A stretch of 64,000 nucleotides of DNA from Betaproteobacteria bacterium (GTDB lineage: Bacteria > Pseudomonadota > Gammaproteobacteria > Burkholderiales > Burkholderiaceae_C). Under the pieces are notes generated by a model, which did no database searches, was not told the origin of the DNA, and was given only the letters and a program-made list of their open reading frames with translations. Shown here piece after piece: positions 18,698-37,765 of the stretch (position 1 is the first letter of the stretch; each line of letters begins with the position of its first letter). The position numbers and the translations under genes were made by a program. The stretch lies in contig JANNFE010000166.1 in the NCBI GenBank assembly GCA_031379415.1, forward strand, positions 156-64,155, given 5' to 3'.

Positions 18698-18734
18698 GCC
18701 TGCGGCCTGGCGCCGCACCCGCGGAAGCATCAGG

Positions 18735-19489: not shown

Positions 19490-19503
19490 CTGATGTGAAT
19501 CAA
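19490..19503. promoter_or_regulatory. FNR box CTGAT-GTGA-ATCAA
   Basis: One mismatch; in an AT-rich promoter patch upstream of mtrC. Confidence 0.7.
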
Positions 19504-19624
19504 CTTTTGCAGCAGGCTCGCTTGTAGATTGGCCTGCCGAAGACGAGACGTCCCGCGGGAATGCGTGCACCGCATCACCGCCGAAGCGCGCCGCGTCGGG
19601 CCGCACACATCGAGGAGAACATTC

Positions 19625-22402: not shown

Positions 22403-22404
22403 CG

Positions 22405-22707: not shown

Positions 22708-23667
22708 ATGGACATCCGCCATGCCTTCTGTGTCGGTCTGGTGCTGCTGGGCAGCCTGGCGGGATGCACACCCGCCGCGGCGCAGACCCCGGCCGCCGAC
22801 AGCGGCCCCGGCACTGAATACAGTGAGAAAGGTGCCGACACCTGCCTGGAGTGCCACGACGACGAGACGCCGGGCTACTCAGGCTCGGCCCTCTTCAAGG
22901 GCCGCCACGCCCACCGCGCCGACCCGCGTGCGCCCTTCGGCGCGGGCGGCCTGCAGTGCGAGGCCTGCCACGGCCCCGGCGGCCGCCACGCCGCCAAAGG
23001 CAGCAAGAAGAAGCTGACCATCAACAGCCTGAAGGCCGACTCCTTCCTGCCCGTGGCCGCGCGCAACCAGAGTTGCCTGGCCTGCCACCAGAACCAGGCC
23101 CGCAGCGCCTGGCACGCGGGTGCGCATGAACGCGGCAAGCTGGCCTGCACCGACTGCCACAAGATGCACGTGGAGAGCGACGCCGTACTCGTCAAGGCCA
23201 GCGAAGCCGCCGTGTGCTTTGCCTGCCACAAGCAGCAGCGCGCCGACTTCCACAAGACCTCGTCGCACCCGGTGCAGGGCGGCCGCATGAGCTGCAGCGA
23301 CTGCCACAACGCCCATGGCACGGTGGCCGCGGCCAGCCTGGTCAAGCCGACGCTGAACCAGACCTGCACCACCTGCCACGCCGACAAACGCGGCCCCAAG
23401 CTGTGGGAGCACGCGCCGGTGGCCGAAGACTGCGCGCTGTGCCACACGCCGCATGGTTCGGTGCGCCAGGCCATGCTCACCAAGAGCCCGCCGCAGCTGT
23501 GCCAGCAGTGCCACACGGCAGCGGGCCATCCTTCGGTGGCGCGCGGCGGCAACTCGCTGCCGGGTGGCAGCGGCAGCGCCATCTTTGCCGTGGCCGGCGG
23601 CTGCAGCAACTGCCACTCGGCGGTGCACGGCTCCAACCATCCCTCGGGCGCCAAGCTCATGCGCTGA
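22708..23667 (+). CDS. mtrA: DmsE/MtrA/MtoA family periplasmic decaheme cytochrome
   Basis: Ten CxxCH; YS.KGADTCL.CHD, LQCEACHGPG..H, S.HPV..G.MSCSDCHN.HG, KRGP.LWEHAPV.EDC..CH.PHGS, HGSNHPSG. Confidence 0.93.
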   Translation: MDIRHAFCVGLVLLGSLAGCTPAAAQTPAADSGPGTEYSEKGADTCLECHDDETPGYSGSALFKGRHAHRADPRAPFGAGGLQCEACHGPGGRHAAKGSKKKLTINSLKADSFLPVAARNQSCLACHQNQARSAWHAGAHERGKLACTDCHKMHVESDAVLVKASEAAVCFACHKQQRADFHKTSSHPVQGGRMSCSDCHNAHGTVAAASLVKPTLNQTCTTCHADKRGPKLWEHAPVAEDCALCHTPHGSVRQAMLTKSPPQLCQQCHTAAGHPSVARGGNSLPGGSGSAIFAVAGGCSNCHSAVHGSNHPSGAKLMR

Positions 23668-23696
23668 AGCGCAGCACCCCGCACCCGGACGCCACC

Positions 23697-25790
23697 ATGA
23701 GCCACACCACGCCCTTGCTGATCTTGGCCGCCTGCGGACTGTTGTCCGCAGCCGCCACGCAGGCCGTGGCAGCCGCGGACACCTCGAAGTGGACCTGCTC
23801 GGCCTGCCCCTACGAGAAGGCCGGTGTCAGCGGCAGTGTCGAAGCCGGCGCGGGTGCGGTGACGGGCGAGCGCGCGCGCTACGGTGCCGATAACGGCCTG
23901 AACGGCAAGCGCGGGTTCGGGGTGCTGGGTGGCACGCTGCGCTACCGAGATGGCACGGACCTCTACGGCAGTGGGGTGGCCGAGGACATCGGCCTCGACA
24001 TGCGGGCGCTGGCCGCCGAACTGGGGCGCGAAGGCAGCTGGCGCTTGAACCTCGGCGTCAGCCAGTGGCCGCATCAGCTGGAAGGCGCCGGCCGTTCGCC
24101 CTTCATCGGCGCCGGCAGCGGCGTGCAGACCCTGCCCTTCCCAGCCGCTGCATCACCGGCGCAGATGCCGCTGGCGAGCAGCCTGCAGCCGGTGGACCTG
24201 GGCACGCAGCGCACGCGCAGCGAATTGTCGGCACTGTGGATCGTCGGCCCCGAATGGACGCACCGCGTGAGCCTGCGCCATGACGTGCGCGACGGCACGC
24301 AGCGCCTGGGTGCTTCCTTCTTCTCCACCAGCAGCCTGCTGGCCGCGCCGGTGGACCAGACCACCGACCAGCTGGAACTGTCCACCAGCTACGCCGGCCG
24401 CGGCATCAACGCCACGCTGGCCTACCAAGCGTCGATCTTTCGCAACGCCGAAGGCTCGGTGACCTGGTCCAACCCCTACAACCCCGTGGTGGCCGGCGCC
24501 AGCCGCGGGCAGCTGGCGCTGGCACCGTCCAACCAGTTCCACCAGCTGATGGCCAGCGGAGGCATCGAACTCGCGCCGCGCATGCGGCTGAGCGGCGACG
24601 TGGCCATCGGCCGCATGACGCAGGACGAAGCCTTCCTGGCGCCGACGCTCAACCCGACGCTGGCCGCCGCGGCCAGCGCGGCCATGCCGGCAGCTTCGCT
24701 CGACGGCCGCGCCGACACTTTCAACGCCAGCGTGCAGCTGTCGGCCGCACCGGCCGAGGGCCTGCGCCTGAACGCCAGCGTGGCGCGCAACGTGCGCGAC
24801 AACCAGACCACCAGCCGGCTGTACCCGGCGCTGTCGACCGACACGTTCCTGGACCCTGGCGCGCGGCGCGCACCGGCTTTCAGCTTCAAGCAGAACCGCT
24901 TCAAGGCCGGTGCCGACTACCGCATCGGCCGCACCGCCACCGTGGCTGCAGGCGTGGAGCGCGACGAGCGCATCCGTTCCTGGCAGGACGTGGTGTCGAC
25001 GCGCGAGACCACGCTGTGGGCACGCGGCAGCGTGCAGCCCACGGAAGAACTGGCGCTGTCGCTGAAAGTCTCGCGTGCCGAGCGTGACCCCAGCAGCTAC
25101 GGCAGCGCCACCTGGGTCACGTCGCCGCAGAACCCGCTGCTGCGCAAGTTCAACCTGGCCGAGCGCAACCGCGAGACGGCCGCGCTGCGCGCCGACCTCA
25201 CGCTGAGCGAGGCGCTCAGCATCGGCCTGCACGTCGACCTGTCGCGCGACACCTTCCCCGACGCCGTGCTCGGCATGACGCTGGCGCGCAACCTGAGTGG
25301 TGGCGCCGACATCGCCTACACCGTGTCGGAGCAGACCCAGCTGCATGCCTTTGCGCAGGCCGAGCGCATGCGCTCGATGCAGGCCGGCAGCGAAGCCTTT
25401 GGCGCGCCCGACTGGTGGAGCCGCAGCCACGACACCGCGCACGTGCTGGGCTTCGGCGTCAAGCACAGCGCGCTGAAGGGGCGGCTCGAAGTTGGCGGTG
25501 ATGTCGTGATGTCGCGCTCGCGCGCCAACGTTGGCGTGGTTACCCGGGTGGCCGAAACACCCTACCCCACCGCCACGCAGCAGCGCGACAGCCTGCGACT
25601 GCACGCCACCTGGAAGCTGAAGGACGGCATGTCCATCGTCGGCCGCTACGCCTTCGAACGCCAGGCGCAGGCCGACTGGCGGCTCGACGGCCTACAGCCC
25701 GACACGCTGGTCAACCTGCTGGCCCTGGGTGAGACGCCGCCCAACTACCGCGTCAACGTCTTCAGCGTGGCGCTGCGCTACAGCTTCTGA
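23697..25790 (+). CDS. mtrB: MtrB/PioB family beta-barrel porin
   Basis: Signal peptide, N-terminal W.CSAC motif, P.D.TT, LAP.NQFHQ, G...QDE.FL, NPLLRKFNLA.R.R, C-terminal YSF. Confidence 0.92.
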   Translation: MSHTTPLLILAACGLLSAAATQAVAAADTSKWTCSACPYEKAGVSGSVEAGAGAVTGERARYGADNGLNGKRGFGVLGGTLRYRDGTDLYGSGVAEDIGLDMRALAAELGREGSWRLNLGVSQWPHQLEGAGRSPFIGAGSGVQTLPFPAAASPAQMPLASSLQPVDLGTQRTRSELSALWIVGPEWTHRVSLRHDVRDGTQRLGASFFSTSSLLAAPVDQTTDQLELSTSYAGRGINATLAYQASIFRNAEGSVTWSNPYNPVVAGASRGQLALAPSNQFHQLMASGGIELAPRMRLSGDVAIGRMTQDEAFLAPTLNPTLAAAASAAMPAASLDGRADTFNASVQLSAAPAEGLRLNASVARNVRDNQTTSRLYPALSTDTFLDPGARRAPAFSFKQNRFKAGADYRIGRTATVAAGVERDERIRSWQDVVSTRETTLWARGSVQPTEELALSLKVSRAERDPSSYGSATWVTSPQNPLLRKFNLAERNRETAALRADLTLSEALSIGLHVDLSRDTFPDAVLGMTLARNLSGGADIAYTVSEQTQLHAFAQAERMRSMQAGSEAFGAPDWWSRSHDTAHVLGFGVKHSALKGRLEVGGDVVMSRSRANVGVVTRVAETPYPTATQQRDSLRLHATWKLKDGMSIVGRYAFERQAQADWRLDGLQPDTLVNLLALGETPPNYRVNVFSVALRYSF

Positions 25791-25938: not shown

Positions 25939-26304
25939 ATGAATGCCTACGCGATCTTCCTGCTCTACCTGCTGCTCATCCTGGGCGTGGTGGCGCTCGT
26001 GCTGGCGCTCAACCGCGTGCTGGGCCCCAAACCCGTGGCCACGGCAACGAAGCTGGAGCCCTTCGAATGCGGCGCCACGCCGGTGAGCACGCTCAACGTG
26101 AAGGCCGTGCCCATCAAGTACTACGCGGTGGCCATCGTCTTCGTGCTCTTCGACCTGGAGACGGTCTTCCTCTTCATCTGGGCGCTGGCGGCACAGCCGC
26201 TCACCGGCTTCATGCTGGGCACGCTGTTCGCCTTCCTGTTCCTGCTGGTGCTGATCCTGCTGGTCGTCTACAAGGCGCGGCTGCTCGAGGCGGTGACCGA
26301 ATGA
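25939..26304 (+). CDS. nuoA: NADH-quinone oxidoreductase subunit A
   Basis: K.EPFECG, KYY.VAI.F.LFD.E..FL..W. Confidence 0.92.
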   Translation: MNAYAIFLLYLLLILGVVALVLALNRVLGPKPVATATKLEPFECGATPVSTLNVKAVPIKYYAVAIVFVLFDLETVFLFIWALAAQPLTGFMLGTLFAFLFLLVLILLVVYKARLLEAVTE

Positions 26305-26825
26305 GCAGCTACGGCCGCAGCATCCCCATCGTGCCCGCCGACCACACGAAGGACGGCGCCTTCGAGATACTCACCACGCGCAAGGACGAACTCATCGGCT
26401 GGGCGCGCAAGTTCTCGATCTTTCCCTACCCCTTCGTCACGGCCTGCTGCGCCATGGAGTTCATGGCCGTCAGCGCCACGCCCTACGACACCGACCGCTT
26501 CGGCGCCGCCCTGCCCCGCTTCAGCCCGCGCCAGGCCGACCTGCTGATGGTGGTGGGCACCGTCACGCACAAGCAGGCGCCCATCCTGCTGAAGGTGTAC
26601 GAACAGATGTGCGAGCCCAAGTGGGTGATGGCCTTCGGCGTCTGTGCCAGCAGCGGCGGCTTCTACCAGAACTACGCGGCGCTGCCGGGCATCGACCGCA
26701 TCATTCCGGTGGACGTGTATGTCCCGGGCTGCCCACCGCGGCCCGAGATGGTGATCGACGGGATCATGCAGCTGCAGGACAAGATCGCGCGCGCCAGCCA
26801 CGTCATCCTGACGAAGACCTTCTGA
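26301..26825 (+). CDS. nuoB: NADH-quinone oxidoreductase subunit B
   Basis: ACCAMEF, SPRQADL..V.GT, G.CASSGG, VDVYVPGCPPRPE (cluster N2 ligands). Confidence 0.95.
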   Translation: MSSYGRSIPIVPADHTKDGAFEILTTRKDELIGWARKFSIFPYPFVTACCAMEFMAVSATPYDTDRFGAALPRFSPRQADLLMVVGTVTHKQAPILLKVYEQMCEPKWVMAFGVCASSGGFYQNYAALPGIDRIIPVDVYVPGCPPRPEMVIDGIMQLQDKIARASHVILTKTF

Positions 26826-26827
26826 GC

Positions 26828-27301
26828 ATGGCGGCCGACATCTTCGACACCTTGCAGGACACGCTCTCGCCGCTGGCTGGGCCGGGTGTCGTGCAGCATG
26901 GCGTGCTCGTGTTCCAGCCGCCGGCGGCCGAGTTGCTGCCCGTGGTGCGCCGGCTGAAGGACCTCTACGCCTTCGACATCTTCCTCGACGTCACCGCCAT
27001 CGACTGGCCCGCCGATGCGCTGCGCTTCGAGGTCGTGCACCACTTCTACAGCAGCATGCACAAGCAACGTGTGCGCCTGAAGACGCGGGTGGCCGAAGCC
27101 GACCCCTGCGTCGATACGCTCATCACGCTCTACCGCTCGGCCGCCTACATGGAGCGCGAGTGCCACGACATGTACGGCATCGTCTTCCGCGGCAATGCCG
27201 ACCTGCGCCCCATCCTGCTCTACGAAGGCTTCGTCGGCCACCCGCTGCGCAAGGACTACCCCAAGCAGGCCGAGCAGCCGCTCGTGCCCTACCGGAACTG
27301 A
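26828..27301 (+). CDS. nuoC: NADH-quinone oxidoreductase subunit C
   Basis: DVTAIDW, RFEVV.H, ERE.HDMYGI.F.G..DLRPILL...F.GHPLRKDYP. Confidence 0.93.
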   Translation: MAADIFDTLQDTLSPLAGPGVVQHGVLVFQPPAAELLPVVRRLKDLYAFDIFLDVTAIDWPADALRFEVVHHFYSSMHKQRVRLKTRVAEADPCVDTLITLYRSAAYMERECHDMYGIVFRGNADLRPILLYEGFVGHPLRKDYPKQAEQPLVPYRN

Positions 27302-27305
27302 CGCC

Positions 27306-28544
27306 GTGGACGCGCGCACCCGCCCCATTGCCAACCCCGTGCTCAGCAGCCTGCAGACGCCGCTGCACGAAGACTCGGTCATCGTCAGCATCGGCCCTTC
27401 GCACCCGGCCACGCACGGCACGGTGCAGATCTTCGTCGAGCTGGACGGCGAACGCGTGTTGCGCAGCGACGTGCATTGCGGCTACCTGCACCGCGGCTTC
27501 GAGAAGGAGTGCGAGGACCACACCTGGCACAACCTCATTCCCTATGTCGACCGCCTGAACTACGTCTCGGCACTGGTCAATGACTTCGCCTACTGCGGCG
27601 CCGTGGAGACGCTGATGGGGGTGCAGATCACGCCGCGCTGCACGCTGCTGCGCACGCTGCTGTCGGAGTACTCGCGCCTGGTGGACCACCTGACCTGCAC
27701 CGCGGCCGGCCTGATGGAGCTGGGCGCGATGACGGCCTTCCTGTATCTCGTGATGATTCGCGACTACATGTACGAGCACCTGGCCGCGCTCACCGGCGCG
27801 CGGGTCACCTACACCTACGGCCGCATCGGCGGCCTGGCGCGCGACCTGCCCGAAGGCTGGCTGGTGCGCATGGAAGAGATCCTGGTCCAGTACGAGGACT
27901 TCATCGCCCGCGTGCACACGCTGGTGGACCGCAACCGCATCTTCGTCGACCGCATGCGCAAGACTGGCGCCATCAGCACCGCCGACGCGCTGAACCTGGG
28001 CTGCACCGGCCCCATCCTGCGCAGCACCGGCGTGCCGCGCGACCTGCGCAAGGACACTCCCTACCTGGCCTATGCCGAGCTCGACTTCGAGGTGCCGGTG
28101 GGCATCCAGGGCGACAACTACGATCGCTACTTCGTGCGCATGCGCGAGATGGACGAGTCGGTCTACATGATGCGGCAACTGGCCGAAATGCTGCAGCAGC
28201 CGCAGCACCAGGGGCCCATCAACGTGGACGACAGGCGCTGCACTTTTCCCGAAAAGGCGCTGATCTACACGCAGATCGAGTCGCTCATCAACCACTTCAA
28301 GCTGGTGATGGAAGGCCCGGTGGTGCCGGCCGGAGACGCCTACGTGGCGCACGAGGCGCCCAACGGCGAGCTGGGCTTCTACATCGTCAGCACCGGCAGC
28401 GGCACGCCGCACAAGGTGCACGTGCGCTCACCCAGCTTCGTGCACATGGGCGCAGCCTCGCGCATGCTGGACGGCGGCCAGCTCGCAGACATCGTGCCCA
28501 CCTTCGGCTCGATCAACATGATCGGCGGGGAGTGTGATCGGTGA
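27306..28544 (+). CDS. nuoD: NADH-quinone oxidoreductase subunit D
   Basis: GPSHPATHG, GYLHRGFEK, DRLNY, IGGL..DLP, GP.LRSTGV..DLRK, EAPNGELG.Y, G.CDR; no NiFe CxxC motifs. Confidence 0.93.
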   Translation: MDARTRPIANPVLSSLQTPLHEDSVIVSIGPSHPATHGTVQIFVELDGERVLRSDVHCGYLHRGFEKECEDHTWHNLIPYVDRLNYVSALVNDFAYCGAVETLMGVQITPRCTLLRTLLSEYSRLVDHLTCTAAGLMELGAMTAFLYLVMIRDYMYEHLAALTGARVTYTYGRIGGLARDLPEGWLVRMEEILVQYEDFIARVHTLVDRNRIFVDRMRKTGAISTADALNLGCTGPILRSTGVPRDLRKDTPYLAYAELDFEVPVGIQGDNYDRYFVRMREMDESVYMMRQLAEMLQQPQHQGPINVDDRRCTFPEKALIYTQIESLINHFKLVMEGPVVPAGDAYVAHEAPNGELGFYIVSTGSGTPHKVHVRSPSFVHMGAASRMLDGGQLADIVPTFGSINMIGGECDR

Positions 28545-29008
28545 AGCATCTCGTCGGCGAACTCGACACCCTGCGCCGGCGCTACCCGCCGGGCAGCGAC
28601 TCGTCGATGGTCATCCCCTGCCTGCACCGCATCCAGGAAGACCGCGGCTTCGTGGCCGACAGCGACATCACCGAGCTGCAGGCCTACCTGGGTGTGCCGC
28701 GCATCCAGATCGAGGAGGTGCTGGCGCACTACTCGATGTTCCGCCGTGCGCCCATCGGCCGCTGGCACCTGCAGGTCTGCCGCAACGTGAGCTGCTCAAT
28801 GCGCGGCGCCGAGGGCGTCATCGATCATTTGTGCGAACGCCTGGGCATAGCGCCCGGCCAGACCACGCCCGACGGCCGCTTCACGCTGGGCACCGTCGAA
28901 TGCCTGGGTTCCTGCGGCACGGCGCCGGTGGTGATGGTCAATCAGGCCTACCACGAGAACATGAGCGCACCGAAGCTCGACGCCCTCATCGCGGAGCTGC
29001 GCAAGTGA
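28541..29008 (+). CDS. nuoE: NADH-quinone oxidoreductase subunit E
   Basis: L.RIQE..GFV, QVCRNVSC..RG, ECLGSC..APV.MVN (cluster N1a). Confidence 0.93.
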   Translation: MKHLVGELDTLRRRYPPGSDSSMVIPCLHRIQEDRGFVADSDITELQAYLGVPRIQIEEVLAHYSMFRRAPIGRWHLQVCRNVSCSMRGAEGVIDHLCERLGIAPGQTTPDGRFTLGTVECLGSCGTAPVVMVNQAYHENMSAPKLDALIAELRK

Positions 29009-30321
29009 CGGGCCGCAAGCTCATCATGAACTTCCCGGTCACGGCCACGTCGCACGGGCTGGCCGACGTGCAGGCGCGCGGCGGCTACCAGACGCTGGCA
29101 AAGGTGCTGCGCGACATGCGGCCCGAGCAGGTGACCAAGGAAGTGGCGTCCAGCGGCATCCTGGGCCACGGCGGCGCGGCCTTCCCGGCCGGGCGCAAGT
29201 GGGGCGTGATCAAGCTCAACGATCAGCAGCCGCACTACCTGTGCGCCAACGCCGACGAAGGCGAGCCCGGCACGTTCAAGGACCGCTGGATCCTGGAGCA
29301 CGCGCCGCACCTGCTCATCGAGTCCATGCTCATCGCGGCCTACGCGCTGCAGGTGCGCCACGCCTTCGTCTACATGCGCGGCGAGTTCGACCTGCCCTAT
29401 CGGCGCCTGCAGGCCGCCATCGAGGAGGCCTACTCCGCCGGGCTGCTGGGCGACAACATCCTCGACACCGGCTTTGCCTGCGACCTGGTGATCTATCGCG
29501 GCGCCGGCTCCTATGTCTGCGGCGAGGCTTCTGCGCTCATCACGTCCATCGAAGGCAAGAAGGGCTACCCGCGCAACCGGCCGCCACGGCTGACGGTGCG
29601 CGGCCTCTACCAGAAGCCCACCGTCATCAACAACGTCGAGACCCTGGCCAATGTGGCAGGCATCGTGGCCATGGGCGGCGAGGCCTTCAGGCAGATCGGT
29701 GCGCCCAAGAGCCCGGGCACGCAACTGGTCTCGGTCTCGGGCCACATCCAGCGGCCCGGCGTCTACGAAGTCGAATACGGCACCCCGCTGGCGAAGTTCC
29801 TGGACGAGGACTGCGGCGGCGGCCTGGACGGCGTGCCCATCAAGTGCATCGTGCCCGGCGGCATCTCGACCAAGGTGCTCACCGCGGCCGAGTTGCAGCA
29901 CGTCACCTACGACCACGCCAGCCTCGCGGCCGCAGGCTCTGGCGTGGGCTCGGGCGGCATGATCGTCATCGGTGAGGGCACCTGCATGGTCCGCCTGTTG
30001 CAGGTGATGCTGCGCTTCTATCACCACGAAAGCTGCGGCCAGTGCACGCCCTGCCGCGAGGGCATGGGCTGGATGCACCGCATCATCGACCGCATCGTCG
30101 GCGGCCAGGGCCAGCCCGGCGACATCCAGATGCTGGAGCGCATTTCGCGCGCCAACGACGGCACCACCATCTGCGGCATGGGCGACGCCGCGGGTTACGC
30201 CACGCTCGGCATCCTGGCCAAGTACCGCCGCGAGTTCGAGCACTTCATCCAGCACAAGCACTCGCTGATGCAGGGCCGCCTGGACCTCACCGCTGCCCTG
30301 CCGGAGGCCGCCCATGCCTGA
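29005..30321 (+). CDS. nuoF: NADH(P)H-quinone oxidoreductase subunit F with altered nucleotide pocket
   Basis: GHGGAAFP.G.KW, NADEGEPGTFKDR, GAGSYVCGEASAL, NNVETL, ESCGQCTPCREG, TICGMG; GTG start overlaps the nuoE stop (alternative ATG 29026). Confidence 0.93.
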   Translation: MTGRKLIMNFPVTATSHGLADVQARGGYQTLAKVLRDMRPEQVTKEVASSGILGHGGAAFPAGRKWGVIKLNDQQPHYLCANADEGEPGTFKDRWILEHAPHLLIESMLIAAYALQVRHAFVYMRGEFDLPYRRLQAAIEEAYSAGLLGDNILDTGFACDLVIYRGAGSYVCGEASALITSIEGKKGYPRNRPPRLTVRGLYQKPTVINNVETLANVAGIVAMGGEAFRQIGAPKSPGTQLVSVSGHIQRPGVYEVEYGTPLAKFLDEDCGGGLDGVPIKCIVPGGISTKVLTAAELQHVTYDHASLAAAGSGVGSGGMIVIGEGTCMVRLLQVMLRFYHHESCGQCTPCREGMGWMHRIIDRIVGGQGQPGDIQMLERISRANDGTTICGMGDAAGYATLGILAKYRREFEHFIQHKHSLMQGRLDLTAALPEAAHA

Positions 30322-31768
30322 GATCTTCATCGACGGCCGGCCGCTGATGGCCGAGGACAACCAGACCGTGATGCAGGCGGCGCGCGCACACGGCATCGAG
30401 ATCCCCGCCTTCTGCTGGCACCCTGCGCTGTCGGTGCCGGGCAACTGCCGCATCTGCGTGGTGGAAGTGGAAGCTGATGGCAGTGGCTGGGTCGACATCG
30501 CCTGCAACATGCCGGTGACGCCCGGCATGCGCGTGCTGACCGACTCGCCCAGGGTGCGCCAGCGCCGCCAGGAGACGATGCAGTTCATCACGCTGAACCA
30601 CCCGGTGGACTGCGGCATCTGCGACAAGGCCGGCGAATGCACGCTGCAGGACCATCACTACGCCTACAACGGCGAGGCCTCGATCTCGCGCGAGCCCAAG
30701 GTCCACGCCACCAAGCACTTCGACCTGTCGTCGCGCATCGTGCTCGACAACGAGCGCTGCATCCTGTGCACGCGCTGCGTGCGCTTCACGCGCGAGGTCT
30801 CCAAGACCCACGCTCTGGGCGTCATCTCCCGCGGCGACCACTCGCTCATCCGGCCCACGGAAGACGGCGCTTTCGAGCACGACGCCTATTCCGACAACGT
30901 CATCGACCTCTGCCCAGTGGGCGCGCTGCTGTCCAAGGCCACGCTGCACCGCACGCGCGTGTGGTACCTGAAGGCCACGCCCTCGGTGTGCCCGGGCTGC
31001 GAGCGCGGCTGCGCGGTGCAGGTGTGGCACCGCCGGCCCGAATGGAAGCTGAAGGCCGTGGCCCTGGCCGCCAACACGCGCATCGAACGCGTCACGCCGC
31101 GCGACGACCCCGCGATCAACGGGCCGTGGATCTGCAACAAGGGCCGCGACCTGGCCAGCTTCTACGGCCGCGCCCGCGCCGAAACGCCAATGCTGCGCGG
31201 CCGGCCCACCGACCTGGACAGCGCGCTGGAGCGTGCCCGCGAGCTCATCGCCGCGGCGCAGCGACCGGTGGCGCTGGTGTCGAACTGGGCCTCGAACGAG
31301 GAACTGGCCGCCTTCAAGCAGGCGCTGGGCGGCCGCTTCACGAGCTGGGTCAAGACCGACTGCGAAGTCGCGCGTGGCGAGGTGGTGGCCGACGAACTGC
31401 TCATCCGCGCCGACAAGAACCCGAACACCGCCGGCGCCCGGGCCCTGTTCCCCGAACTGCCGGAGGACGCGAGCCACGCCTTTCCCCTCGACACCGATCT
31501 CGTGCTGGTGTGGGGCGAAGGTTTCCCCTTCGCCGAGCTACCGCCCCAGGCGAGCGTGATCCTGCTGAACGCCTGGCTGCAACCCGAAAACCAGCAGGCC
31601 GAGGTCTTCCTGCCCATCAGCACCATGCTCGAGCGGCGCGGCCACTACACCAACTTCGAAGGCGTGCTCAGCGCCTTCGAGCCCTGCTTCCCCGTGCCCG
31701 CCGAAGTGGCCCACGCCGCAGACATCTTTGCTGCGCTGGCCGTGCACGCCGAGGTCGCCCTGCCATGA
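30314..31768 (+). CDS. nuoG: NADH-quinone oxidoreductase subunit G, short form (484 aa)
   Basis: N1b (FCWHP.LS..GNCRICVV..AC), N5 (HP.DC.ICDKAGEC.LQD), N4 (RCILCTRCVRF..CPVGAL), N7-type CPGCERGC..CNKGR; C-terminal domain reduced. Confidence 0.9.
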   Translation: MPEIFIDGRPLMAEDNQTVMQAARAHGIEIPAFCWHPALSVPGNCRICVVEVEADGSGWVDIACNMPVTPGMRVLTDSPRVRQRRQETMQFITLNHPVDCGICDKAGECTLQDHHYAYNGEASISREPKVHATKHFDLSSRIVLDNERCILCTRCVRFTREVSKTHALGVISRGDHSLIRPTEDGAFEHDAYSDNVIDLCPVGALLSKATLHRTRVWYLKATPSVCPGCERGCAVQVWHRRPEWKLKAVALAANTRIERVTPRDDPAINGPWICNKGRDLASFYGRARAETPMLRGRPTDLDSALERARELIAAAQRPVALVSNWASNEELAAFKQALGGRFTSWVKTDCEVARGEVVADELLIRADKNPNTAGARALFPELPEDASHAFPLDTDLVLVWGEGFPFAELPPQASVILLNAWLQPENQQAEVFLPISTMLERRGHYTNFEGVLSAFEPCFPVPAEVAHAADIFAALAVHAEVALP

Positions 31769-32913
31769 AGCAGGACCTGGTCGTCGCCCTGGTCTTCATG
31801 CTCTACGCCGTGGGCATGCTGATGAGCTTCGGCACCGTGCTGACCTGGGTCGAACGCAAGCAGGCGGCGGTGATGTCCGACCGCATCGGCGCCAACCGTG
31901 CCTACATCCGGCTGCCGTACACGCAGATCAAGCTCGTGTGGTGGGGCCTCTTCCACGGCATCGCCGACGGCATCAAGATGCTGGTGAAGGAAGACTTCCA
32001 CCCGCGCACCCACGACGCCGTGGCCTATGCCGTGGCGCCCTGGGTGGTGTTCACGCCGGTGCTGCTGGTCTTTGCCGTGCTGCCCTTCGGCGGCCAGATC
32101 GACCCCGGCCGCCTGTTCCCGGCGCTGGCCGACTGGTTCGGCGGCAAGACCTACCCGATGCAGATCGCGTCGCTCGACGCCGGGCTGCTCATCGTCTTCG
32201 CGTTCAGCGGCATGACCATCATCGGCGCCATGCTGGCCGGCTGGTCGTCGGACAACAAGTTCTCGCTGCTCGGCGGCCTGCGCGCCGGCTCGCAGATGAT
32301 CAGCTACGAGCTGGTGATGGGCCTCACGGTGCTGGGCCTGATCCTGGTCTACGGCACCGTCGACCTGGGGGCCATGGTGCGCCAGCAGTCGGGCACGGTG
32401 TGGGGCTTCCTGCCGGCCTGGGGCGTGGTCTACCAGCCCTTCGCGGCCGTGCTGTTCATGACCGCGGCTATCGCCGAGAACAAGCGCATCCCCTTCGACC
32501 TGCCCGAAGCCGAAAGCGAGCTCATTGCCGGCTACTACACCGAATACAGCGCCATGAAGATGGGCCTCTTCATGTTCGCCGAGTTCATCGAGATCGCGAT
32601 CATCGGCGCGCTCTTCACCACGCTCTTCCTGGGCGGCTACAACCTGCCCTACATGAACGACAGCGGCTTCGCCTTCCCCGGCGGCGCCACGCTGGCCATG
32701 AGCCACGGCGCGGTGGTGGTGACGCAGCTGGTGGTGTTCCTGCTCAAGGTGATGCTGGTCTGCAGCTTCCAGATCCTGGTGCGCTGGACGCTGCCGCGCT
32801 TCCGCTACGACCAGGTGCTGAGCTTCGCCTGGAAGTTCATGCTGCCGCTGGCGCTGGCCAACCTGGCCCTCACCGCGGTGCTGCTGTGGTTGCACCAGGG
32901 AGCACCGTCATGA
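31765..32913 (+). CDS. nuoH: NADH-quinone oxidoreductase subunit H
   Basis: ERK......DRIG.NR, IADGIKM..KED, GW.S.NK.S.LG.LR..SQ.ISYE, AE.KR.PFDLPEAE.EL..GY.TEYS, RW.LPR.RYDQ. Confidence 0.95.
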   Translation: MKQDLVVALVFMLYAVGMLMSFGTVLTWVERKQAAVMSDRIGANRAYIRLPYTQIKLVWWGLFHGIADGIKMLVKEDFHPRTHDAVAYAVAPWVVFTPVLLVFAVLPFGGQIDPGRLFPALADWFGGKTYPMQIASLDAGLLIVFAFSGMTIIGAMLAGWSSDNKFSLLGGLRAGSQMISYELVMGLTVLGLILVYGTVDLGAMVRQQSGTVWGFLPAWGVVYQPFAAVLFMTAAIAENKRIPFDLPEAESELIAGYYTEYSAMKMGLFMFAEFIEIAIIGALFTTLFLGGYNLPYMNDSGFAFPGGATLAMSHGAVVVTQLVVFLLKVMLVCSFQILVRWTLPRFRYDQVLSFAWKFMLPLALANLALTAVLLWLHQGAPS

Positions 32914-33485
32914 CAGTGCGCTACAAGCGCAAGGTCTACTGGAACGAGCCCGAACTGCAGGGCTGGGACCGCGCCTACCTGCCCGAGATCCTGCGTGGGC
33001 TTGCTCTCACCAGCGGCATCTTCCTGCGCAACATGGGCCGCTGGATGAGTGGCCGCAAGGGCGCGCTCACCACCTACTACCCGGAAGAGACGCGCTGGGA
33101 CTACGCGCCCGCCAACCGCGGCAAGCACGTGCTGACGCAGCGCCCCGACGGCAAGCCGCAGTGCGTGGCGTGCAACCTGTGCGCCACGGTCTGCCCGGCG
33201 AAGGTCATCGAGATCGAAGCCGGCTACGACCCCGGCGACACCGCGCACCCCAAGTTCCCCATCCGCTTCGAGATCGACTACTCGCGCTGCGTGTTCTGCG
33301 GTCTGTGCGTCGAGGCCTGCCCCGAAGACGCCATCCGCATGGCCAAGGAGACGCCGGGCCTCACCTCGGATGACCGCCACCAGATGTGGCTGACGATGGA
33401 AGAGATGCTGACCTGGCAGCCGCAGCACGACGTGGCCAAGCCCTATCCGCCGGCACCCGCGGCCAGGCATGAGGCCGCCCCATGA
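32910..33485 (+). CDS. nuoI: NADH-quinone oxidoreductase subunit I
   Basis: T.YYPEE, CVACNLCATVCP, FEIDYSRCVFCGLCVEACP.DAI. Confidence 0.95.
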   Translation: MTVRYKRKVYWNEPELQGWDRAYLPEILRGLALTSGIFLRNMGRWMSGRKGALTTYYPEETRWDYAPANRGKHVLTQRPDGKPQCVACNLCATVCPAKVIEIEAGYDPGDTAHPKFPIRFEIDYSRCVFCGLCVEACPEDAIRMAKETPGLTSDDRHQMWLTMEEMLTWQPQHDVAKPYPPAPAARHEAAP

Positions 33486-34021
33486 TCGACGCGCTGCTGC
33501 TCAACCTGGAAACGCTGCTGCTGCTGGCCTTCAGCGCCGGTGCCTTGCTGTGCGCCACGCTGATGATGGTGCTGCGCCAGCCCATGCGCTTGGCCATGTC
33601 GCTCATTGCCTGCATGTTCTTCCTGGCCGGCATCTACGGCCTGCTGGGCGTGCACTTCATCGCCGCCTTCCAGGTGCTGATCTACGTTGGCGCGGTGATG
33701 GTCTTCATGGTCTACGTGATCATGCTGCTGGAGGTGCGCGAGCACACCGGCGTCCGCTACTCCGCGCTGCTGGTGCCAGGCGTGATCGGCTTCTTCCTAC
33801 TGCTGGGCGCCATCGTCGGCAGCATTTGGCAGGCGCTGCCATCACCCACGGTGGACATCGGCAGCGCCAGCTTCGGCATTGGCGCCTTCTCGGTGGCTTT
33901 CCTGCGCGACCACTGGCTGCACTTCGAGCTGACCTCGGTGCTGCTGCTGGCCGCGGTGGTGGCGGCGCTGGCGGTCATCAAGGTCAGCCGCGCCGCCGAC
34001 CTGCGGCGGCGACATGGATAG
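33482..34021 (+). CDS. nuoJ: NADH-quinone oxidoreductase subunit J
   Basis: P...A.SL, F.AA.QVLIY.GA.MV...YVIMLL, FE..S.LLL.A.V.A. Confidence 0.92.
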   Translation: MIDALLLNLETLLLLAFSAGALLCATLMMVLRQPMRLAMSLIACMFFLAGIYGLLGVHFIAAFQVLIYVGAVMVFMVYVIMLLEVREHTGVRYSALLVPGVIGFFLLLGAIVGSIWQALPSPTVDIGSASFGIGAFSVAFLRDHWLHFELTSVLLLAAVVAALAVIKVSRAADLRRRHG

Positions 34022-34316
34022 GACGCAGCTGCTGCTGGGCGTGGCCGTGGCGCTGTTCGCTCTGGGCCTGCTGGGCGTCATCGTGCGCCGCAACGTGCTG
34101 GTGATGCTGATGTGCATGGAACTCATGCTCAACGGCGTCAACCTGAGCCTCGTCACCTTCGCGCAGCAGCATGGCAACGCCGCGGGCGCGGTGCTGGTGT
34201 TCCTGGTTTTCGTGGTGGCCACGGCCGAGATCGCGCTGGCCATTCCCATCGTGCTGCTGCTGGCGCGCCGCAAGGCCACGCTCGACGTGGCGCAGTTCGA
34301 CGAGCTGAAGGGCTGA
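34014..34316 (+). CDS. nuoK: NADH-quinone oxidoreductase subunit K
   Basis: G..RRNVL..LM..ELMLN.VNL, VA.AE.A.A. Confidence 0.93.
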   Translation: MDRTQLLLGVAVALFALGLLGVIVRRNVLVMLMCMELMLNGVNLSLVTFAQQHGNAAGAVLVFLVFVVATAEIALAIPIVLLLARRKATLDVAQFDELKG

Positions 34317-34320
34317 CGGT

Positions 34321-36214
34321 GTGAGCATGGTGCCGCATGCGCTGACGCTCATCGTGCTGCTGCCGCTGCTGGGCTTCGTGCTCAACGGCGTGTTCGCCAC
34401 CCGGCTGGGCGGCAACGTGGCGGGCAAGGCCTTCGTCACGGTGGTGGGCTGCGGGCTGCCGCTGGCCGCCTTCGCGCTCACCGTGCAGACGGTCATGGCG
34501 CTGCAGGCCGGCGCTTGGGCGCCTCTCATCGAGCCCGTCTACCGCTGGGCACTGATCGGCGGCAGCGCCTTCGAGATCAGCTTCTACTTCGACCGCCTGA
34601 GCGCGGTGATGGCGCTCATCGTCACCGGCGTGGGCTCGGCCATCCACGTCTATTCCGTCGGCTACATGGCCCACGACAAGAGCTACGGCCGCTTCTTCGC
34701 CTACCTCAACCTGTTCCTCTTCTTCATGCTGTTGCTGGTGCTGGGGCGTTCGCTGCTGGTGCTCTTCGTCGGCTGGGAAGGCGTGGGGCTGGCGAGCTAC
34801 CTGCTCATCGGCTTCTGGTTCGACGACGGGGCCAATGCGCGCGCCGGCAAGAAGGCCTTCGTCACCAACCGCGTGGGCGACGCCGGCTTCCTGCTGGGCA
34901 TGTTCCTGCTCTACCAGGCCACAGGCACGCTGGACATGGACCGCATCAACGCCGCCTTCACCGGCGCCAGCGCGCCGGCGGTGTCGGCCAGCCTGGTGGG
35001 TGTGCTGCTGTTCATCGGCGCGACGGGCAAGTCGGCACAGATTCCGCTGCACGTCTGGCTGCCCGACGCCATGGCCGGCCCGACGCCGGTGTCGGCGCTG
35101 ATCCACGCCGCCACCATCGTCCCCGCCGGCGTGTACCTGGTGGCGCGTTTGTCGGGCGTCTACCTGCAGGCGCCCGAAGCCTCGATGCTGATCGCCATCG
35201 TCGGCGCAGCCACCGCCTTCTTCGCCGCCACCGTGGCGCTGGTACAGACCGACATCAAGAAGGTGCTGGCCTACAGCACGGTGTCGCAGCTGGGCTTCAT
35301 GTTCCTGGCGCTCGGCGTCGGTGCCTACGGCGTGGCGGTGTTCCACCTCATGACGCATGCCTTCTTCAAGGCCTGCCTGTTCCTGGGCGCCGGCAGCGTG
35401 ATCCACGCGCTGGGCGGCGAGCAGGACCTGCGCAAGATGGGCGGCCTGGCGCGCCGCATCCCCATCACCTTCGTCACCTTCGCGGTGGCCACGGCGGCCA
35501 TTGCCGGGCTGCCGCCGCTGGCCGGCTTCTTCTCCAAGGACGAGATCCTGTGGTTCGCCTTCGCCAGCGAGCGCGGTTCGCCGCTGCTGTGGTTCGTCGC
35601 TGCGGCCACGGCGCTGATGACGGCCTTCTACATGTTCCGGCTGCTGTGGCTGGCCTTCCTGGGCACGTCCCGCATGACGCTTGAGGTCGAACAACACGTG
35701 CACGAATCACCCTGGAGCATGACTGGCGTGTTGTGCCTGCTGGCACTGCTGTCGGCGGTGGGCGGTTTCATCGCCGTGCCGCACTTCCTGGAGCCGCAGT
35801 GGCCGCTGCCGCCGGTGCACGCGCACCTGCACGCTTTCGAGACGCCGCTGCTGGTGTTCTCGGTGCTGCTGGCGCTGGCCGGGCTGGCCACGGCCTGGTG
35901 GATGTTCGGCGGCAAGCCGGGCCGCGCCGACGCCCTGCAGCAGCGCTTTGCCGGCGCGCACCGCGTGTTGCTCGCCAAGTACCAGGTCGACGAGCTCTAC
36001 GAAGCCACCATCGGCCGGCCGCTGGTGTGGCTGTCCGACCGCATCTTCCTGCGCATCGGTGACCGCATGCTGCTCGACGGCACGCTCAACGGCCTGGGCG
36101 CCCTGGGCCGCCTGGGCGGGCGCCTGCTCGGCGCCGTGCAGACCGGCAACCTGCAGCTCTACCTGTGGTTCGTGCTGGCGGGCCTGGCGGGCGCCGTGCT
36201 GTGGAGCTGGCCGC

Positions 36215-36222
<8 letters not shown>
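34321..36222 (+). CDS. nuoL: NADH-quinone oxidoreductase subunit L
   Basis: D.LS..M, YS.GYM.HD..Y.RFF.YLNLF, GWEGVGL.SY.LIGFW, KAF..NR.GD, GKSAQ.PL..WLPDAMAGPTPVSALIHAAT, DIKKVLAYST.SQLG, H..THAFFKA.LF. Confidence 0.95.

Positions 36223-37761
<1,539 letters not shown>

Positions 37762-37765
<4 letters not shown>

What the first reader, a model, noticed from the sequence alone, without database searches (positions are those of the whole stretch)
29509..29592. NuoF carries a natural Glu183Ala substitution plus Phe to Arg: predicted NADPH-oxidising complex I
Seen: GAGSYVCGEASAL (Ala codon GCT at 29527) instead of the canonical GAG.YICGEETAL, and RNRPPRL (Arg codon at 29587) instead of KPPFP; the Gly-rich loop also differs (ILGHGGAAFP vs LRGRGGAGFP). 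Known: E. coli NuoF Glu183 (second Glu of GEET) discriminates against the 2'-phosphate, and E183A arose in laboratory evolution under NADPH stress and allows NADPH oxidation; the KPPF Phe stacks on the adenine, and Arg at such positions is typical of NADP pockets. Inference: a naturally NADPH-using, proton-pumping complex I, consistent with the NADP-type KorC in the same island. All Fe-S motifs and the quinone-site His/Tyr residues are retained, arguing against decay.
Basis: partly seen in the sequence, partly recalled or inferred. Interest (0 to 1): 0.9.

Follow-up and report, generated by a model that had tools for sequence, protein, structure and literature searches.

The report
Second complex I with NADPH-type pocket
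This bacterium and at least 80 related species carry, beside their normal respiratory complex I, a second one whose fuel-binding pocket has the changes that make related enzymes use NADPH instead of NADH. If confirmed, it would be a natural NADPH-burning proton pump, which I could not find described.

Summary
In nuoF (window 29005-30321), the Ala codon GCT at 29527 aligns without gaps to E. coli NuoF Glu183 (T. thermophilus Nqo1 Glu185). The Arg codon CGG at 29587 aligns to the adenine-stacking Phe (E. coli F203, T. thermophilus F205).

This is not a private mutation. All 119 closest database proteins and 80/80 related species loci, all Burkholderiales-type, have GEAS plus RPPR, encoded by all four synonymous Ala and Arg codons.

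The gene lies in a complete, cofactor-intact 14-gene nuo operon. The operon coexists with a canonical GEET/KPPF complex I in the same genome and in at least 20 of 22 relatives.

Three published systems tie these two positions to NADP(H):
- T. kivui HydB is strictly NADP+-specific and has GEST/RPPR; its Arg340 contacts NADP+.
- Engineered R. capsulatus FdsB variants E259X and L279R gain NADP+ activity.
- E. coli NuoF Glu183 variants gain NADPH affinity.

Across the NuoF family, a basic residue at the Phe site occurs only together with loss of the Glu.

Gene context agrees. FNR boxes precede nuoA in 38/67 loci. In 24/57 loci the upstream genes encode 2-oxoacid oxidoreductases, often with a GltD-type flavoprotein and an NADP-type malic enzyme.

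The most likely reading is an oxygen-limitation isozyme that oxidises NADPH. No biochemistry exists, and I found no prior description.

The parts
29005..30321 (+). nuoF of the second complex I, the FMN / NAD(P)H-binding 51-kDa-type subunit. It is 438 aa from GTG 29005; an alternative ATG lies at 29026.
   Evidence: Pfam Complex1_51K, SLBB and NADH_4Fe-4S. NCBIfam NuoF model NF010120 scores 423.6 bits against a cut-off of 389. About 45-50% identical to solved NuoF/Nqo1 chains, E = 1e-107. Database call P0002 is 438 aa.
29524..29532 (+). Codons Glu-Ala-Ser (GAG GCT TCT) in place of the canonical Glu-Glu-Thr. Ala175 corresponds to E. coli NuoF Glu183 and T. thermophilus Glu185.
   Evidence: Ungapped alignments. 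GEAS is present in 119/119 close database relatives and in 80/80 species loci. The Ala is encoded by GCC, GCG, GCT and GCA across species.
29578..29589 (+). Codons Arg-Pro-Pro-Arg in place of Lys/Arg-Pro-Pro-Phe. Arg195 corresponds to E. coli Phe203, T. thermophilus Phe205 and T. kivui HydB Arg340.
   Evidence: PRNRPPR is invariant in the clade. The Arg is encoded by CGG, CGC, CGA and CGT. PMC10021017 (Fig. 4 legend) names Arg340 as an NADP+ contact.
29206..29208 (+). Val68 at the position of T. thermophilus Phe78, one of the adenine-pocket aromatics (KWGV in place of KWSF).
   Evidence: Val, or rarely Gly, occurs in all 80 loci where the loop was read. This position is variable in the family at large: E. 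coli has Leu, and it is not significantly linked to the Arg.
29164..29187 (+). Gly-rich FMN/nucleotide loop GHGGAAFP (canonical GRGGAGFP).
   Evidence: The AAFP part is fixed in the clade, while His varies with Arg. It is not specific to the Arg-bearing family members.
25939..39168 (+). Complete nuoA-N operon of the second complex I. Genes: nuoA 25939-26304, B 26301-26825, C 26828-27301, D to 28544, E 28541-29008, F 29005-30321, G 30314-31768, H to 32913, I to 33485, J 33482-34021, K 34014-34316, L 34321-36222, M 36212-37765, N 37762-39168.
   Evidence: Pfam hits for the subunits. The same gene order is found in 80 related loci. Subunits are only 31-55% identical to the canonical operon of the same genome on contigs C214 and C334.
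30314..31768 (+). Short NuoG (484 aa). It keeps the N-terminal Fe-S domain, including an N7-type Cys motif, but most of the molybdopterin-like domain is deleted.
   Evidence: Pfam. The PDB alignment covers residues 3-340 and then jumps to the C-terminal roughly 100 residues. The clade C trait of a short NuoG is described in PMC4453560.
25831..25844 (+). FNR-like box TTGATCCACCGCAA, with one mismatch to TTGA-N6-TCAA, 108 nt before the nuoA ATG.
   Evidence: Perfect TTGA-N6-TCAA boxes lie within 450 bp upstream of nuoA in 38 of 67 related loci. Shuffles of the window give 0.10 boxes per 64 kb.
18663..25790 (+). CymA/NapC-like, MtrC-like, small HhH protein, MtrA-like and MtrB/PioB-like outer-membrane cytochrome conduit. 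It lies directly upstream of nuoA on the same strand.
   Evidence: Pfam and NCBIfam DmsE-family decaheme and NapC/NirT models. The conduit is adjacent to the nuo operon in only 13 of 57 related loci with enough flank.
51095..55808 (+). korC-like GltD-type flavoprotein with a 2x[4Fe-4S] tail, followed by 2-oxoacid:ferredoxin oxidoreductase alpha and beta subunits (candidate 2-oxoacid:NADP+ oxidoreductase).
   Evidence: Pfam and NCBIfam. It is present in 10/10 order-sample genomes that carry the variant nuoF and in 86/391 that do not.

Best explanation
The window encodes a second, complete, proton-pumping complex I. It is a short-NuoG type, separate from the genome's canonical betaproteobacterial enzyme. 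Its NuoF adenosine pocket has been rebuilt to accept the 2'-phosphate of NADP(H).

Proposed pocket mechanism:
- The carboxylate that hydrogen-bonds the adenosine-ribose 2'-OH and repels a phosphate (E. coli Glu183) is replaced by Ala.
- The adenine-stacking Phe (E. coli Phe203) is replaced by Arg, which can both stack on adenine and bind the phosphate.
- The rest of the enzyme is standard: FMN, N1a, N3, the NuoG/I/B cluster chain, the NuoD quinone site and three antiporter-like subunits.

I therefore expect hydride transfer from NADPH to FMN, electron transfer to quinone, and proton pumping.

Most likely physiology: the isozyme is switched on by an FNR-type regulator when oxygen is scarce. It re-oxidises NADPH made by oxygen-sensitive, NADP-linked dehydrogenases encoded beside it in relatives (2-oxoacid oxidoreductase plus GltD-type flavoprotein, and NADP-type malic enzyme). 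The electrons enter the quinone pool. In this window and its closest relatives they can then leave through the adjacent CymA/MtrCAB conduit.

Shown here: the substitutions, their conservation, coexistence with a canonical enzyme, the match to characterised NADP-type relatives, and the gene context. Inferred: the nucleotide preference, the direction of operation and the regulation.
For: 1. Position mapping is unambiguous.
2. GEAS plus RPPR is present in 119/119 nearest protein clusters (77-87% identity) and in 80/80 species-level loci. All four Ala and all four CGN Arg codons are used, which indicates purifying selection on the residues themselves.
3. A canonical GEET/KPPF NuoF is present in the same genome and in at least 20 of 22 relatives' genomes. 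The variant is therefore an added isozyme, not a replacement.
4. Natural anchor. T. kivui HydB (PDB 8A6T chain B) has GEST and RPPR at the same columns. The purified enzyme reduces NADP+ at 20.8 U/mg and NAD+ at <0.01 U/mg (PMC8578170, Table 4). The cryo-EM paper names Arg340, which is the Phe205 column, as an NADP+ contact (PMC10021017). The NAD+-dependent A. woodii and A. mobile HydB have GEET and RPPF.
5. Engineering anchor. In R. capsulatus FdsB, E259G/R/K/Q and L279R each give NADP+ activity that the wild type lacks. These are the same two columns, 17 residues apart as here (PMC10671435). That paper also cites the E. coli Glu183 to Gln/His result.
6. Family-wide coupling. Among about 140 full-length 50%-identity representatives, Arg or His at the Phe column occurs 12 times and always with a non-Glu at the Glu column. 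Glu pairs with F/Y/L/I/S 123 times. On a tree built without those columns the basic residue arose at least 9 times. In 6 independent well-supported contrasts the Glu column moved the same way in 5.4 on average and never the opposite way. Identical GEAS plus PPR also occurs in unrelated Dehalococcoidales-type HydB-like proteins.
7. All cofactor ligands and the quinone-site His and Tyr are kept.
8. Context. Perfect FNR-type boxes lie upstream of nuoA in 38/67 loci, against 0.10 expected per 64 kb. In 24/57 loci the genes directly upstream on the same strand encode pyruvate/2-oxoacid:ferredoxin oxidoreductases. Twelve of these also have a GltD-type NAD(P)H flavoprotein plus a malic enzyme. That malic enzyme matches NADP-dependent malic enzymes best in the PDB: 650-656 bits, against 606 for NAD-ME2 and 504 for E. 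coli MaeA.
9. The korC-like flavoprotein co-occurs with the variant nuoF in 10/10 genomes, against 86/391 without it (Fisher p = 4e-7, not corrected for phylogeny).
Against: - No kinetic, structural or expression data exist for any member.
- Removing the Glu alone gives dual NADH/NADPH use in the engineered FdsB variants (PMC10671435), so NADH may still be a good substrate here.
- A third determinant proposed for HydB-type enzymes (NGDEGDPG for NADP versus NADEGDPG for NAD; PMC9431212) is not met: the window has NADEGEPG. In my sample, however, that Gly is not linked to the Arg.
- All 23 genomes tested also have the PntB transhydrogenase. An NADPH-specific pump is therefore not the only route between the NADPH pool and respiration.
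- The korC co-occurrence may simply mark facultative anaerobes.
- 20 of 57 loci show none of the listed neighbours.
- The effect of the clade-specific Gly-loop change (GGAAFP) on FMN or nucleotide binding is unknown.
Confidence: 0.65

Rival explanations
1. The enzyme is a relaxed, dual-specificity NAD(P)H complex I in which NADH remains the main physiological donor. On this view the substitutions only widen specificity or tune nucleotide affinity, for example faster NAD+ release or less inhibition at high NADH/NAD+ ratios under anoxia.
For: Engineered single substitutions of the equivalent Glu, or the equivalent Leu to Arg, in R. capsulatus FdsB give enzymes active with both NAD+ and NADP+, with similar kcat/Km (PMC10671435, Table 1). 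The window keeps NADEGEPG rather than the NGDEG loop of T. kivui. PntB is present in all 23 genomes tested.
Against: The natural enzyme with both changes, T. kivui HydB, is strictly NADP+-specific (PMC8578170). Every carrier examined already has a canonical NADH enzyme. Arg at the Phe column never occurs with the Glu retained, which fits a phosphate-binding role. The neighbours are NADP-type enzymes.
Confidence: 0.2
2. The pocket reads NADP(H) as above, but the enzyme works mainly in reverse. Quinol plus proton-motive force reduces NADP+ to supply NADPH for CO2-fixing or reductive reactions (pyruvate synthase, reverse malic enzyme, PHA synthesis). In the Mtr-linked loci the electrons would be taken up from outside the cell.
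For: The operon lies next to an Mtr/Pio-type conduit. Earlier first-reader notes flag an MtoD-like oxidiser marker there (not tested here). 2-oxoacid oxidoreductases and malic enzyme are reversible. A PhaC gene lies nearby at 41124-44042. The literature discusses reverse-running complex I as an NAD(P)H supply (PMC4758237).
Against: Cellular NADP pools are kept more reduced than NAD pools (general knowledge), so uphill reduction of NADP+ costs more than reduction of NAD+ followed by PntAB, which all carriers have. MtrC-type cytochromes usually mark outward electron transfer. Only 13/57 loci have Mtr. No RuBisCO or similar link was examined.
Confidence: 0.12
3. The nucleotide site is not the working entry point. 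Electrons reach this complex I from ferredoxin or flavodoxin reduced by the neighbouring 2-oxoacid oxidoreductases, as in Campylobacter complex I (my own knowledge). The pocket changes would then reflect a different or regulatory ligand.
For: PFOR/POR genes lie directly upstream in 24/57 loci. Ten of these have a large PFOR with a DHOD-like flavoprotein and no GltD-type subunit.
Against: NuoE, NuoF, the FMN loops, and the N1a and N3 ligands are all kept and conserved, unlike the Campylobacter case, where NuoE/F are replaced. The altered residues are invariant and match an NADP-binding precedent. Twelve loci pair the POR with a GltD-type NAD(P)H flavoprotein.
Confidence: 0.05

Closest known systems
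E. coli complex I with NuoF Glu183 replaced (engineered E183A/H/Q and others, Morina et al. 2011 JBC; evolved E183A, Auriol et al. 2011 PNAS). Neither paper is held in the library. Morina 2011 is cited in PMC10671435; the rest is my own knowledge.
   Same: The same subunit, the same column and, for E183A, the same residue. It is a full proton-pumping complex I that gains NADPH oxidation.
   Different: Those are laboratory single-site variants of a clade E enzyme. Here the change is natural, fixed in a clade of at least 80 species, accompanied by Phe to Arg and Phe78 to Val, and sits in a separate short-NuoG isozyme next to a canonical enzyme.
[quoted passage not shown]
   Same: The NuoF fold, with non-Glu (Ser320) and Arg (Arg340) at the same two columns and a non-aromatic residue at the Phe78 column. 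It has measured strict NADP+ specificity, and Arg340 is named as an NADP+ contact.
   Different: It is a soluble hydrogenase subunit with extra N- and C-terminal Fe-S domains, about 42% identical, and not part of a membrane proton pump. It has NGDEGDPG where the window has NADEGEPG.
FdsB of Rhodobacter capsulatus formate dehydrogenase, engineered E259X and L279R (PMC10671435)
   Same: A NuoF homologue. The two residues chosen to switch NAD+ to NADP+ are the same two columns as Ala175 and Arg195.
   Different: These are engineered single changes that give weak, dual activity (Km in the mM range). The enzyme is a soluble formate dehydrogenase.
Canonical NADH-specific complex I (T. thermophilus Nqo1-14, E. 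coli NuoA-N, and the clade B operon on contigs C214/C334 of this genome)
   Same: 14 subunits in the same order, all Fe-S ligands, the FMN site, the quinone-site His and Tyr, and the L/M/N antiporter-like subunits.
   Different: GEET/KPPF against GEAS/RPPR. NuoG is 484 aa rather than about 780-910 aa. Only 31-55% identical to the canonical subunits of the same genome. An FNR box is present in most relatives.
Clade C complex I of Spero et al. 2015 (PMC4453560)
   Same: Separate NuoC and NuoD and a short NuoG (clade mean 493 aa). The paper also develops the idea that second isozymes are horizontally acquired and used under different oxygen regimes.
   Different: Clade membership was not tested by phylogeny here. 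That survey listed only one betaproteobacterium with two isozymes (clades B and E) and does not discuss nucleotide specificity.

Membership tests
Respiratory complex I (NDH-1, NuoA-N) | All 14 core subunit genes present in one operon | tested here: met
   Pfam hits for NuoB, C, D, E, F, G, H, I, J, L, M and N. NuoA and NuoK were identified by position and by conservation in 80 loci.
Respiratory complex I (NDH-1, NuoA-N) | Cofactor ligands: NuoE N1a, NuoF N3, NuoG N1b/N4/N5, NuoB N2, NuoI 2x[4Fe-4S], and the NuoD quinone-site His and Tyr | tested here: met
   Cys patterns and the alignment to E. coli NuoCD H224/Y273.
Respiratory complex I (NDH-1, NuoA-N) | NuoF recognised by curated NuoF equivalog models | tested here: inconclusive
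   NF010120 scores 423.6 against a cut-off of 389 (met). TIGR01959 scores 502.7 against 558.65, and NF008436 scores 346.9 against 749 (both below cut-off).
Respiratory complex I (NDH-1, NuoA-N) | NADH-specific nucleotide pocket (GEET Glu and KPPF Phe) | tested here: not met
   The window has GEAS and RPPR.
Respiratory complex I (NDH-1, NuoA-N) | Quinone reduction coupled to proton translocation | not testable with these tools
   Needs membranes or proteoliposomes.
NADP(H)-specific NuoF-fold flavoproteins (T. kivui HydB type) | No acidic residue at the column of T. thermophilus Glu185 / E. coli Glu183 | tested here: met
   The window has Ala175; T. kivui has Ser320.
NADP(H)-specific NuoF-fold flavoproteins (T. 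kivui HydB type) | Arg at the column of T. thermophilus Phe205 (T. kivui Arg340, an NADP+ contact) | tested here: met
   The window has Arg195 (PMC10021017).
NADP(H)-specific NuoF-fold flavoproteins (T. kivui HydB type) | NGDEGDPG loop, proposed in PMC9431212 as a specificity mark | tested here: not met
   The window has NADEGEPG. The proposal is untested, and this Gly is not linked to the Arg among representatives.
NADP(H)-specific NuoF-fold flavoproteins (T. kivui HydB type) | Measured preference for NADP(H) over NAD(H) | not testable with these tools
   No biochemical data exist for any clade member. No paper was found.
Clade C complex I (Spero et al. 2015) | Short NuoG (about 490 aa) and unfused NuoC and NuoD | tested here: met
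   NuoG is 484 aa, and NuoC and NuoD are separate (PMC4453560).
Clade C complex I (Spero et al. 2015) | Placement inside clade C in a concatenated Nuo phylogeny | not tested
   No reference clade C sequences were fetched. The nearest non-clade NuoF representatives are at most 50% identical.

The most novel reading that the evidence does not exclude
A naturally and strictly NADPH-specific, proton-pumping complex I exists in a widespread group of freshwater, soil and wastewater Burkholderiales. Together with NADP-type malic enzyme and 2-oxoacid:NADP+ oxidoreductases it would form an FNR-controlled 'NADPH respiration' module. This would replace the NADH-based pyruvate and 2-oxoglutarate dehydrogenase route when oxygen is scarce. 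In this window's lineage the module is wired directly to an Mtr conduit, giving an energy-conserving chain from NADPH to extracellular electron acceptors. The same two-residue switch has evolved independently in other complex I operons, for example locus L115.
Probability: 0.35. Interest if true: 0.85.

Novelty: new variant of a known kind. Interest (0 to 1): 0.75.

Why it matters
Complex I is taught as an NADH-specific enzyme. NADPH-driven versions are known only as laboratory mutants. A natural, conserved NADPH-type isozyme would show that bacteria can feed the anabolic nucleotide pool straight into an energy-conserving pump. That would change how redox balance is modelled in facultative anaerobes, in wastewater and sediment Burkholderiales, and in organisms with extracellular electron transfer.

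It would also provide:
- an evolved template (Ala plus Arg, and perhaps Val) for engineering NADPH-respiring production strains;
- a simple two-column sequence rule for predicting NAD versus NADP use across the large NuoF/HydB/FdsB/HoxF family. That rule agrees with the characterised enzymes I could check.

The claim is directly testable, because a cultured carrier (Rubrivivax sp. A210, L005) and established NuoEF expression methods exist.

Tried and rejected
- Rhodoquinone idea. I asked whether a low-potential quinone might explain a need for a stronger donor. The local UbiE-like methyltransferase (45352-46227) is not RquA: 31 bits against a cut-off of 175. The RquA model hit none of 32 carrier genomes. 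No control genome rang either, so absence is not proven. I dropped the idea.
- Missing transhydrogenase idea. PntB is present in 23/23 genomes, so I rejected it.
- Phe78 column as a third coupled determinant. It is non-aromatic in many NAD-type members, and there is no significant link on the tree.
- NGDEG versus NADEG loop as a determinant. It is not linked to the Arg in my sample.
- Origin of the operon. The nearest non-clade NuoF (P0123) sits on a 2-kb contig and was uninformative. Database names for Arg-bearing family members were generic.
- Primary papers. Morina 2011, Auriol 2011 and Berrisford & Sazanov 2009 are not held. Statements from them are marked as my own knowledge or taken from papers that cite them.
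- Structure prediction was not run. The tool returns no coordinates, so pocket geometry could not have been measured.
- Literature searches for any natural NADPH-dependent complex I returned nothing.
Full report
**Observation.** The stretch 29509-29592 translates to SYVCGEASALITSIEGKKGYPRNRPPRL. It lies in a 438-aa gene (GTG 29005, overlapping the nuoE stop as GTGA; alternative ATG at 29026; stop at 30321). Pfam and NCBIfam recognise the product as NuoF. Alignment to T. thermophilus Nqo1 is ungapped across this region. A three-way alignment with E. coli K-12 NuoF and the genome's own canonical NuoF agrees. These alignments give the following mapping:
- Ala (GCT 29527-29529) corresponds to E. 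coli Glu183 and T. thermophilus Glu185.
- Arg (CGG 29587-29589) corresponds to E. coli Phe203 and T. thermophilus Phe205.
- The preceding Arg corresponds to T. thermophilus Lys202.
- In addition, T. thermophilus Phe78 is Val here (29206-29208).
- The Gly-rich loop reads GHGGAAFP (29164-29187).

All Fe-S ligands of NuoE, F, G, B and I are present, as are the NuoD His and Tyr of the quinone site.

**What the gene belongs to.** nuoF is the sixth gene of a compact nuoA-N operon (25939-39168). The same genome, a 97%-complete 5.2-Mb assembly, also has a canonical betaproteobacterial nuo operon on contigs C214 and C334. Its NuoF reads GEETAL/KPPFP and its subunits are only 31-55% identical to those in the window. 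A third, FdsB-like homologue lies on contig C138. The window therefore encodes a second complex I isozyme. Its NuoG has only 484 residues: the N-terminal cluster domain is kept and most of the molybdopterin-like domain is missing. This trait, together with unfused NuoC and NuoD, is what Spero et al. describe for their clade C enzymes (PMC4453560). I did not test clade membership.

**A clade character under selection.**
- The 119 nearest protein clusters in the 5.8-billion-protein collection (77-87% identical, annotated from Burkholderiales, Caldimonas and Burkholderiaceae MAGs) all carry GAGSYVCGEAS[AG]L and PRNRPPRLT.
- A scan of one genome per species returned 80 loci, and more exist. They include Rubrivivax-labelled MAGs, the isolate Rubrivivax sp. 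A210, Casimicrobiaceae and many unnamed betaproteobacteria. All 80 have the whole operon in the same order, and all 80 have GEAS, RPPR and a non-aromatic residue at the Phe78 column.
- Ala is encoded by GCC, GCG, GCT and GCA, and the Arg by CGG, CGC, CGA and CGT. The residues, not the codons, are being conserved.
- In an even sample of the order, 10 of 401 genomes (8 of 168 genera, 4 families) carry the variant.
- A canonical GEET/KPPF NuoF was confirmed in 20 of 22 carrier genomes examined. The other two are not excluded.
- At 50% identity the clade has no close neighbours: the nearest other NuoF is at most 50% identical.

**Do these two columns decide NAD versus NADP?** Three independent published systems say they do.
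- T. kivui HydABC. The purified enzyme reduces NADP+ at 20.8 U/mg and NAD+ at <0.01 U/mg (PMC8578170). Its HydB (PDB 8A6T chain B) aligns GESTAL...RPPRT with the canonical GEETAL...RPPFP of the NAD+-dependent A. woodii and A. mobile enzymes. Counting along that alignment, Arg340 is the Phe205 column and Phe205(Tk) is the T. thermophilus Phe70 column. The cryo-EM paper states that NADP+ is held by the Gly-rich loop, Phe205 and Arg340 (PMC10021017).
- R. capsulatus FdsB. The wild type has no NADP+ activity. E259G/R/K/Q and L279R each create it. Lys276, Leu279 and Glu259 have the same spacing as T. thermophilus Lys202, Phe205 and Glu185. The authors describe Glu259 as hydrogen-bonded to the ribose 2'-OH (PMC10671435).
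- E. coli complex I. The same paper cites the result that replacing the equivalent Glu raises NADPH affinity. That E183A itself arose under NADPH stress is my recollection of Auriol et al. 2011, which I could not read here.

**Family-wide coupling.** Among about 140 full-length representatives of the NuoF/HydB/FdsB family, Arg or His at the Phe column occurs 12 times, always with a non-Glu (A, S, G or D) at the Glu column. Glu pairs with F/Y/L/I/S 123 times, and five sequences have lost the Glu without gaining a base. On a tree built without the trait columns, the basic residue arose at least nine times. In six independent, well-supported contrasts the Glu column changed in the same direction in 5.4 on average and never in the opposite direction. 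The sign test gives a median p of 0.06, limited by the number of contrasts. The exact GEAS plus PPR pair also occurs in Dehalococcoidales-type HydB-like proteins. A His variant (GEAT/KPPH) sits in another full complex I operon. The Phe78 column and the NGDEG/NADEG loop proposed in PMC9431212 are not reliably coupled.

**Context.**
- In the window, the operon starts 148 bp after an MtrB/PioB gene. That gene closes a CymA-MtrC-HhH-MtrA-MtrB cluster on the same strand.
- This adjacency holds in only 13 of 57 related loci with enough flank.
- In 24 of the 57, the upstream co-directional genes encode 2-oxoacid:ferredoxin oxidoreductases. Fourteen have porG-porA-porB; 12 of these also have a GltD-type NAD(P)H flavoprotein and a malic enzyme. 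Ten have a large single-chain PFOR plus a DHOD-like flavoprotein.
- The malic enzyme scores best against NADP-dependent malic enzymes (human ME3, pigeon cytosolic ME). It keeps the VDSKG segment and a Lys aligned with theirs. Reading these as NADP determinants rests on my own knowledge.
- The window's genome has the porGAB-GltD set on contig C7 and a korC-like three-gene set at 51095-55808.
- The korC-like flavoprotein is present in 10/10 variant carriers of the order sample and in 86/391 non-carriers (p = 4e-7, not corrected for phylogeny).
- A perfect FNR-type palindrome TTGA-N6-TCAA lies within 450 bp upstream of nuoA in 38 of 67 loci, against 0.10 expected per 64 kb. The window has a one-mismatch version 108 nt before nuoA, and others before the mtr and korC-like clusters.
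- PntB is present in all 23 genomes tested.

**Mechanism proposed.** The pocket loses the carboxylate that selects for a free 2'-OH and gains a guanidinium where the adenine-stacking Phe was. The enzyme should therefore bind NADPH productively on FMN. Everything downstream is standard complex I, so NADPH oxidation should drive quinone reduction and proton pumping. The regulatory boxes and neighbours suggest an isozyme for low-oxygen conditions. It would be fed by NADP-linked malate, pyruvate and 2-oxoacid oxidation. In this lineage the quinol would be drained by CymA/MtrCAB.

My estimates:
- about 0.8 that NADPH is a good substrate;
- about 0.65 that NADP(H) is the physiological partner;
- about 0.4 that the enzyme is strictly NADPH-specific.

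Direction cannot be settled from sequence. Forward operation is favoured on thermodynamic grounds and by the MtrC-type conduit.

**Rivals.** The alternatives are a dual-specificity enzyme still run mainly on NADH, an enzyme run in reverse to make NADPH, and ferredoxin/flavodoxin input with a vestigial nucleotide site. They are weighed in the Rival explanations section. None is excluded without biochemistry.

**Novelty.** Full-text searches for natural NADPH-dependent complex I, for NuoF variants and for papers citing the engineering study found no description of this clade or of a natural Glu183 replacement in a complex I. Surveys of complex I diversity do not discuss it (PMC4453560, PMC4758237). 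Earlier notes of this scan record the same short-NuoG operon next to mtrB in other genomes, and a different GltD-based NADPH input module in Chloroflexota complex I. None of them examined the NuoF pocket. I class the finding as a new variant of a known kind.

**Limits.**
- Three primary papers were unavailable.
- The co-occurrence statistics are not corrected for phylogeny.
- The family-wide covariation rests on the 150 representatives most similar to the query.

Noticed in passing
window 30314-31768: NuoG has only 484 aa. The N-terminal Fe-S domain, including an N7-type CxxCxxxC...C motif, is kept, but about 200 residues of the molybdopterin-like domain are deleted. The same length is implied in all 80 related loci.
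   Followed up: partly
window 18663-25790: A CymA/NapC-like, MtrC-like, small HhH (ComEA-like), MtrA-like and MtrB/PioB cluster ends 148 bp before nuoA on the same strand. This adjacency is confined to the closest relatives (13 of 57 loci).
   Followed up: partly
L016:87-4633, L035:636-5346 and 8 further loci: A large single-chain PFOR (about 1180-1210 aa) is followed by a 335-aa DHOD-family flavoprotein, directly upstream of the variant nuo operon. This pairing is not familiar to me, and it may be another route from pyruvate to a pyridine nucleotide or to quinone.
   Followed up: no
L115:6297-21323 (JGI metagenome contig): Another complex I operon has a fused NuoBCD and a normal-length NuoG. 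Its NuoF reads GEAT...KPPH (Glu lost, His at the Phe column). Pentose-phosphate genes (transaldolase-PGI, RpiB, transketolase) lie just upstream on the other strand. This may be an independent NADPH-type complex I.
   Followed up: partly
L116/L117:10001-11875 (Nitrospirota MAGs): An orphan 624-aa NuoE-NuoF fusion reads GEDS...KPPRL and is not in a nuo operon. The cluster has 54 members.
   Followed up: no
window 51095-55808; genome contig C7:2202-6664: The genome has two separate 2-oxoacid oxidoreductase sets with GltD-type flavoprotein subunits. One is korC-like plus alpha and beta in the window. The other is porG-A-B plus a GltD-like gene on C7. In relatives, the counterpart of the C7 set lies directly upstream of the variant nuo operon.
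   Followed up: partly
window 12067-12080 and 14114-14127: These are the only two perfect TTGA-N6-TCAA boxes in the window (0.10 expected). They flank the ccmF-like gene and lie next to the multihaem nitrite-reductase-like gene. This fits an FNR-controlled anaerobic respiration island.
   Followed up: no
genome handle G370, contig C1:693178-694443: The variant nuoF orthologue in this 99%-complete genome has one in-frame TGA. This could be a sequencing error, a pseudogene or a recoding event.
   Followed up: no
window 39184-39684 (minus strand): A 166-aa protein consisting only of a cNMP-binding domain lies directly after nuoN on the opposite strand. It is conserved at that position in a dozen or more related loci.
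   Followed up: no
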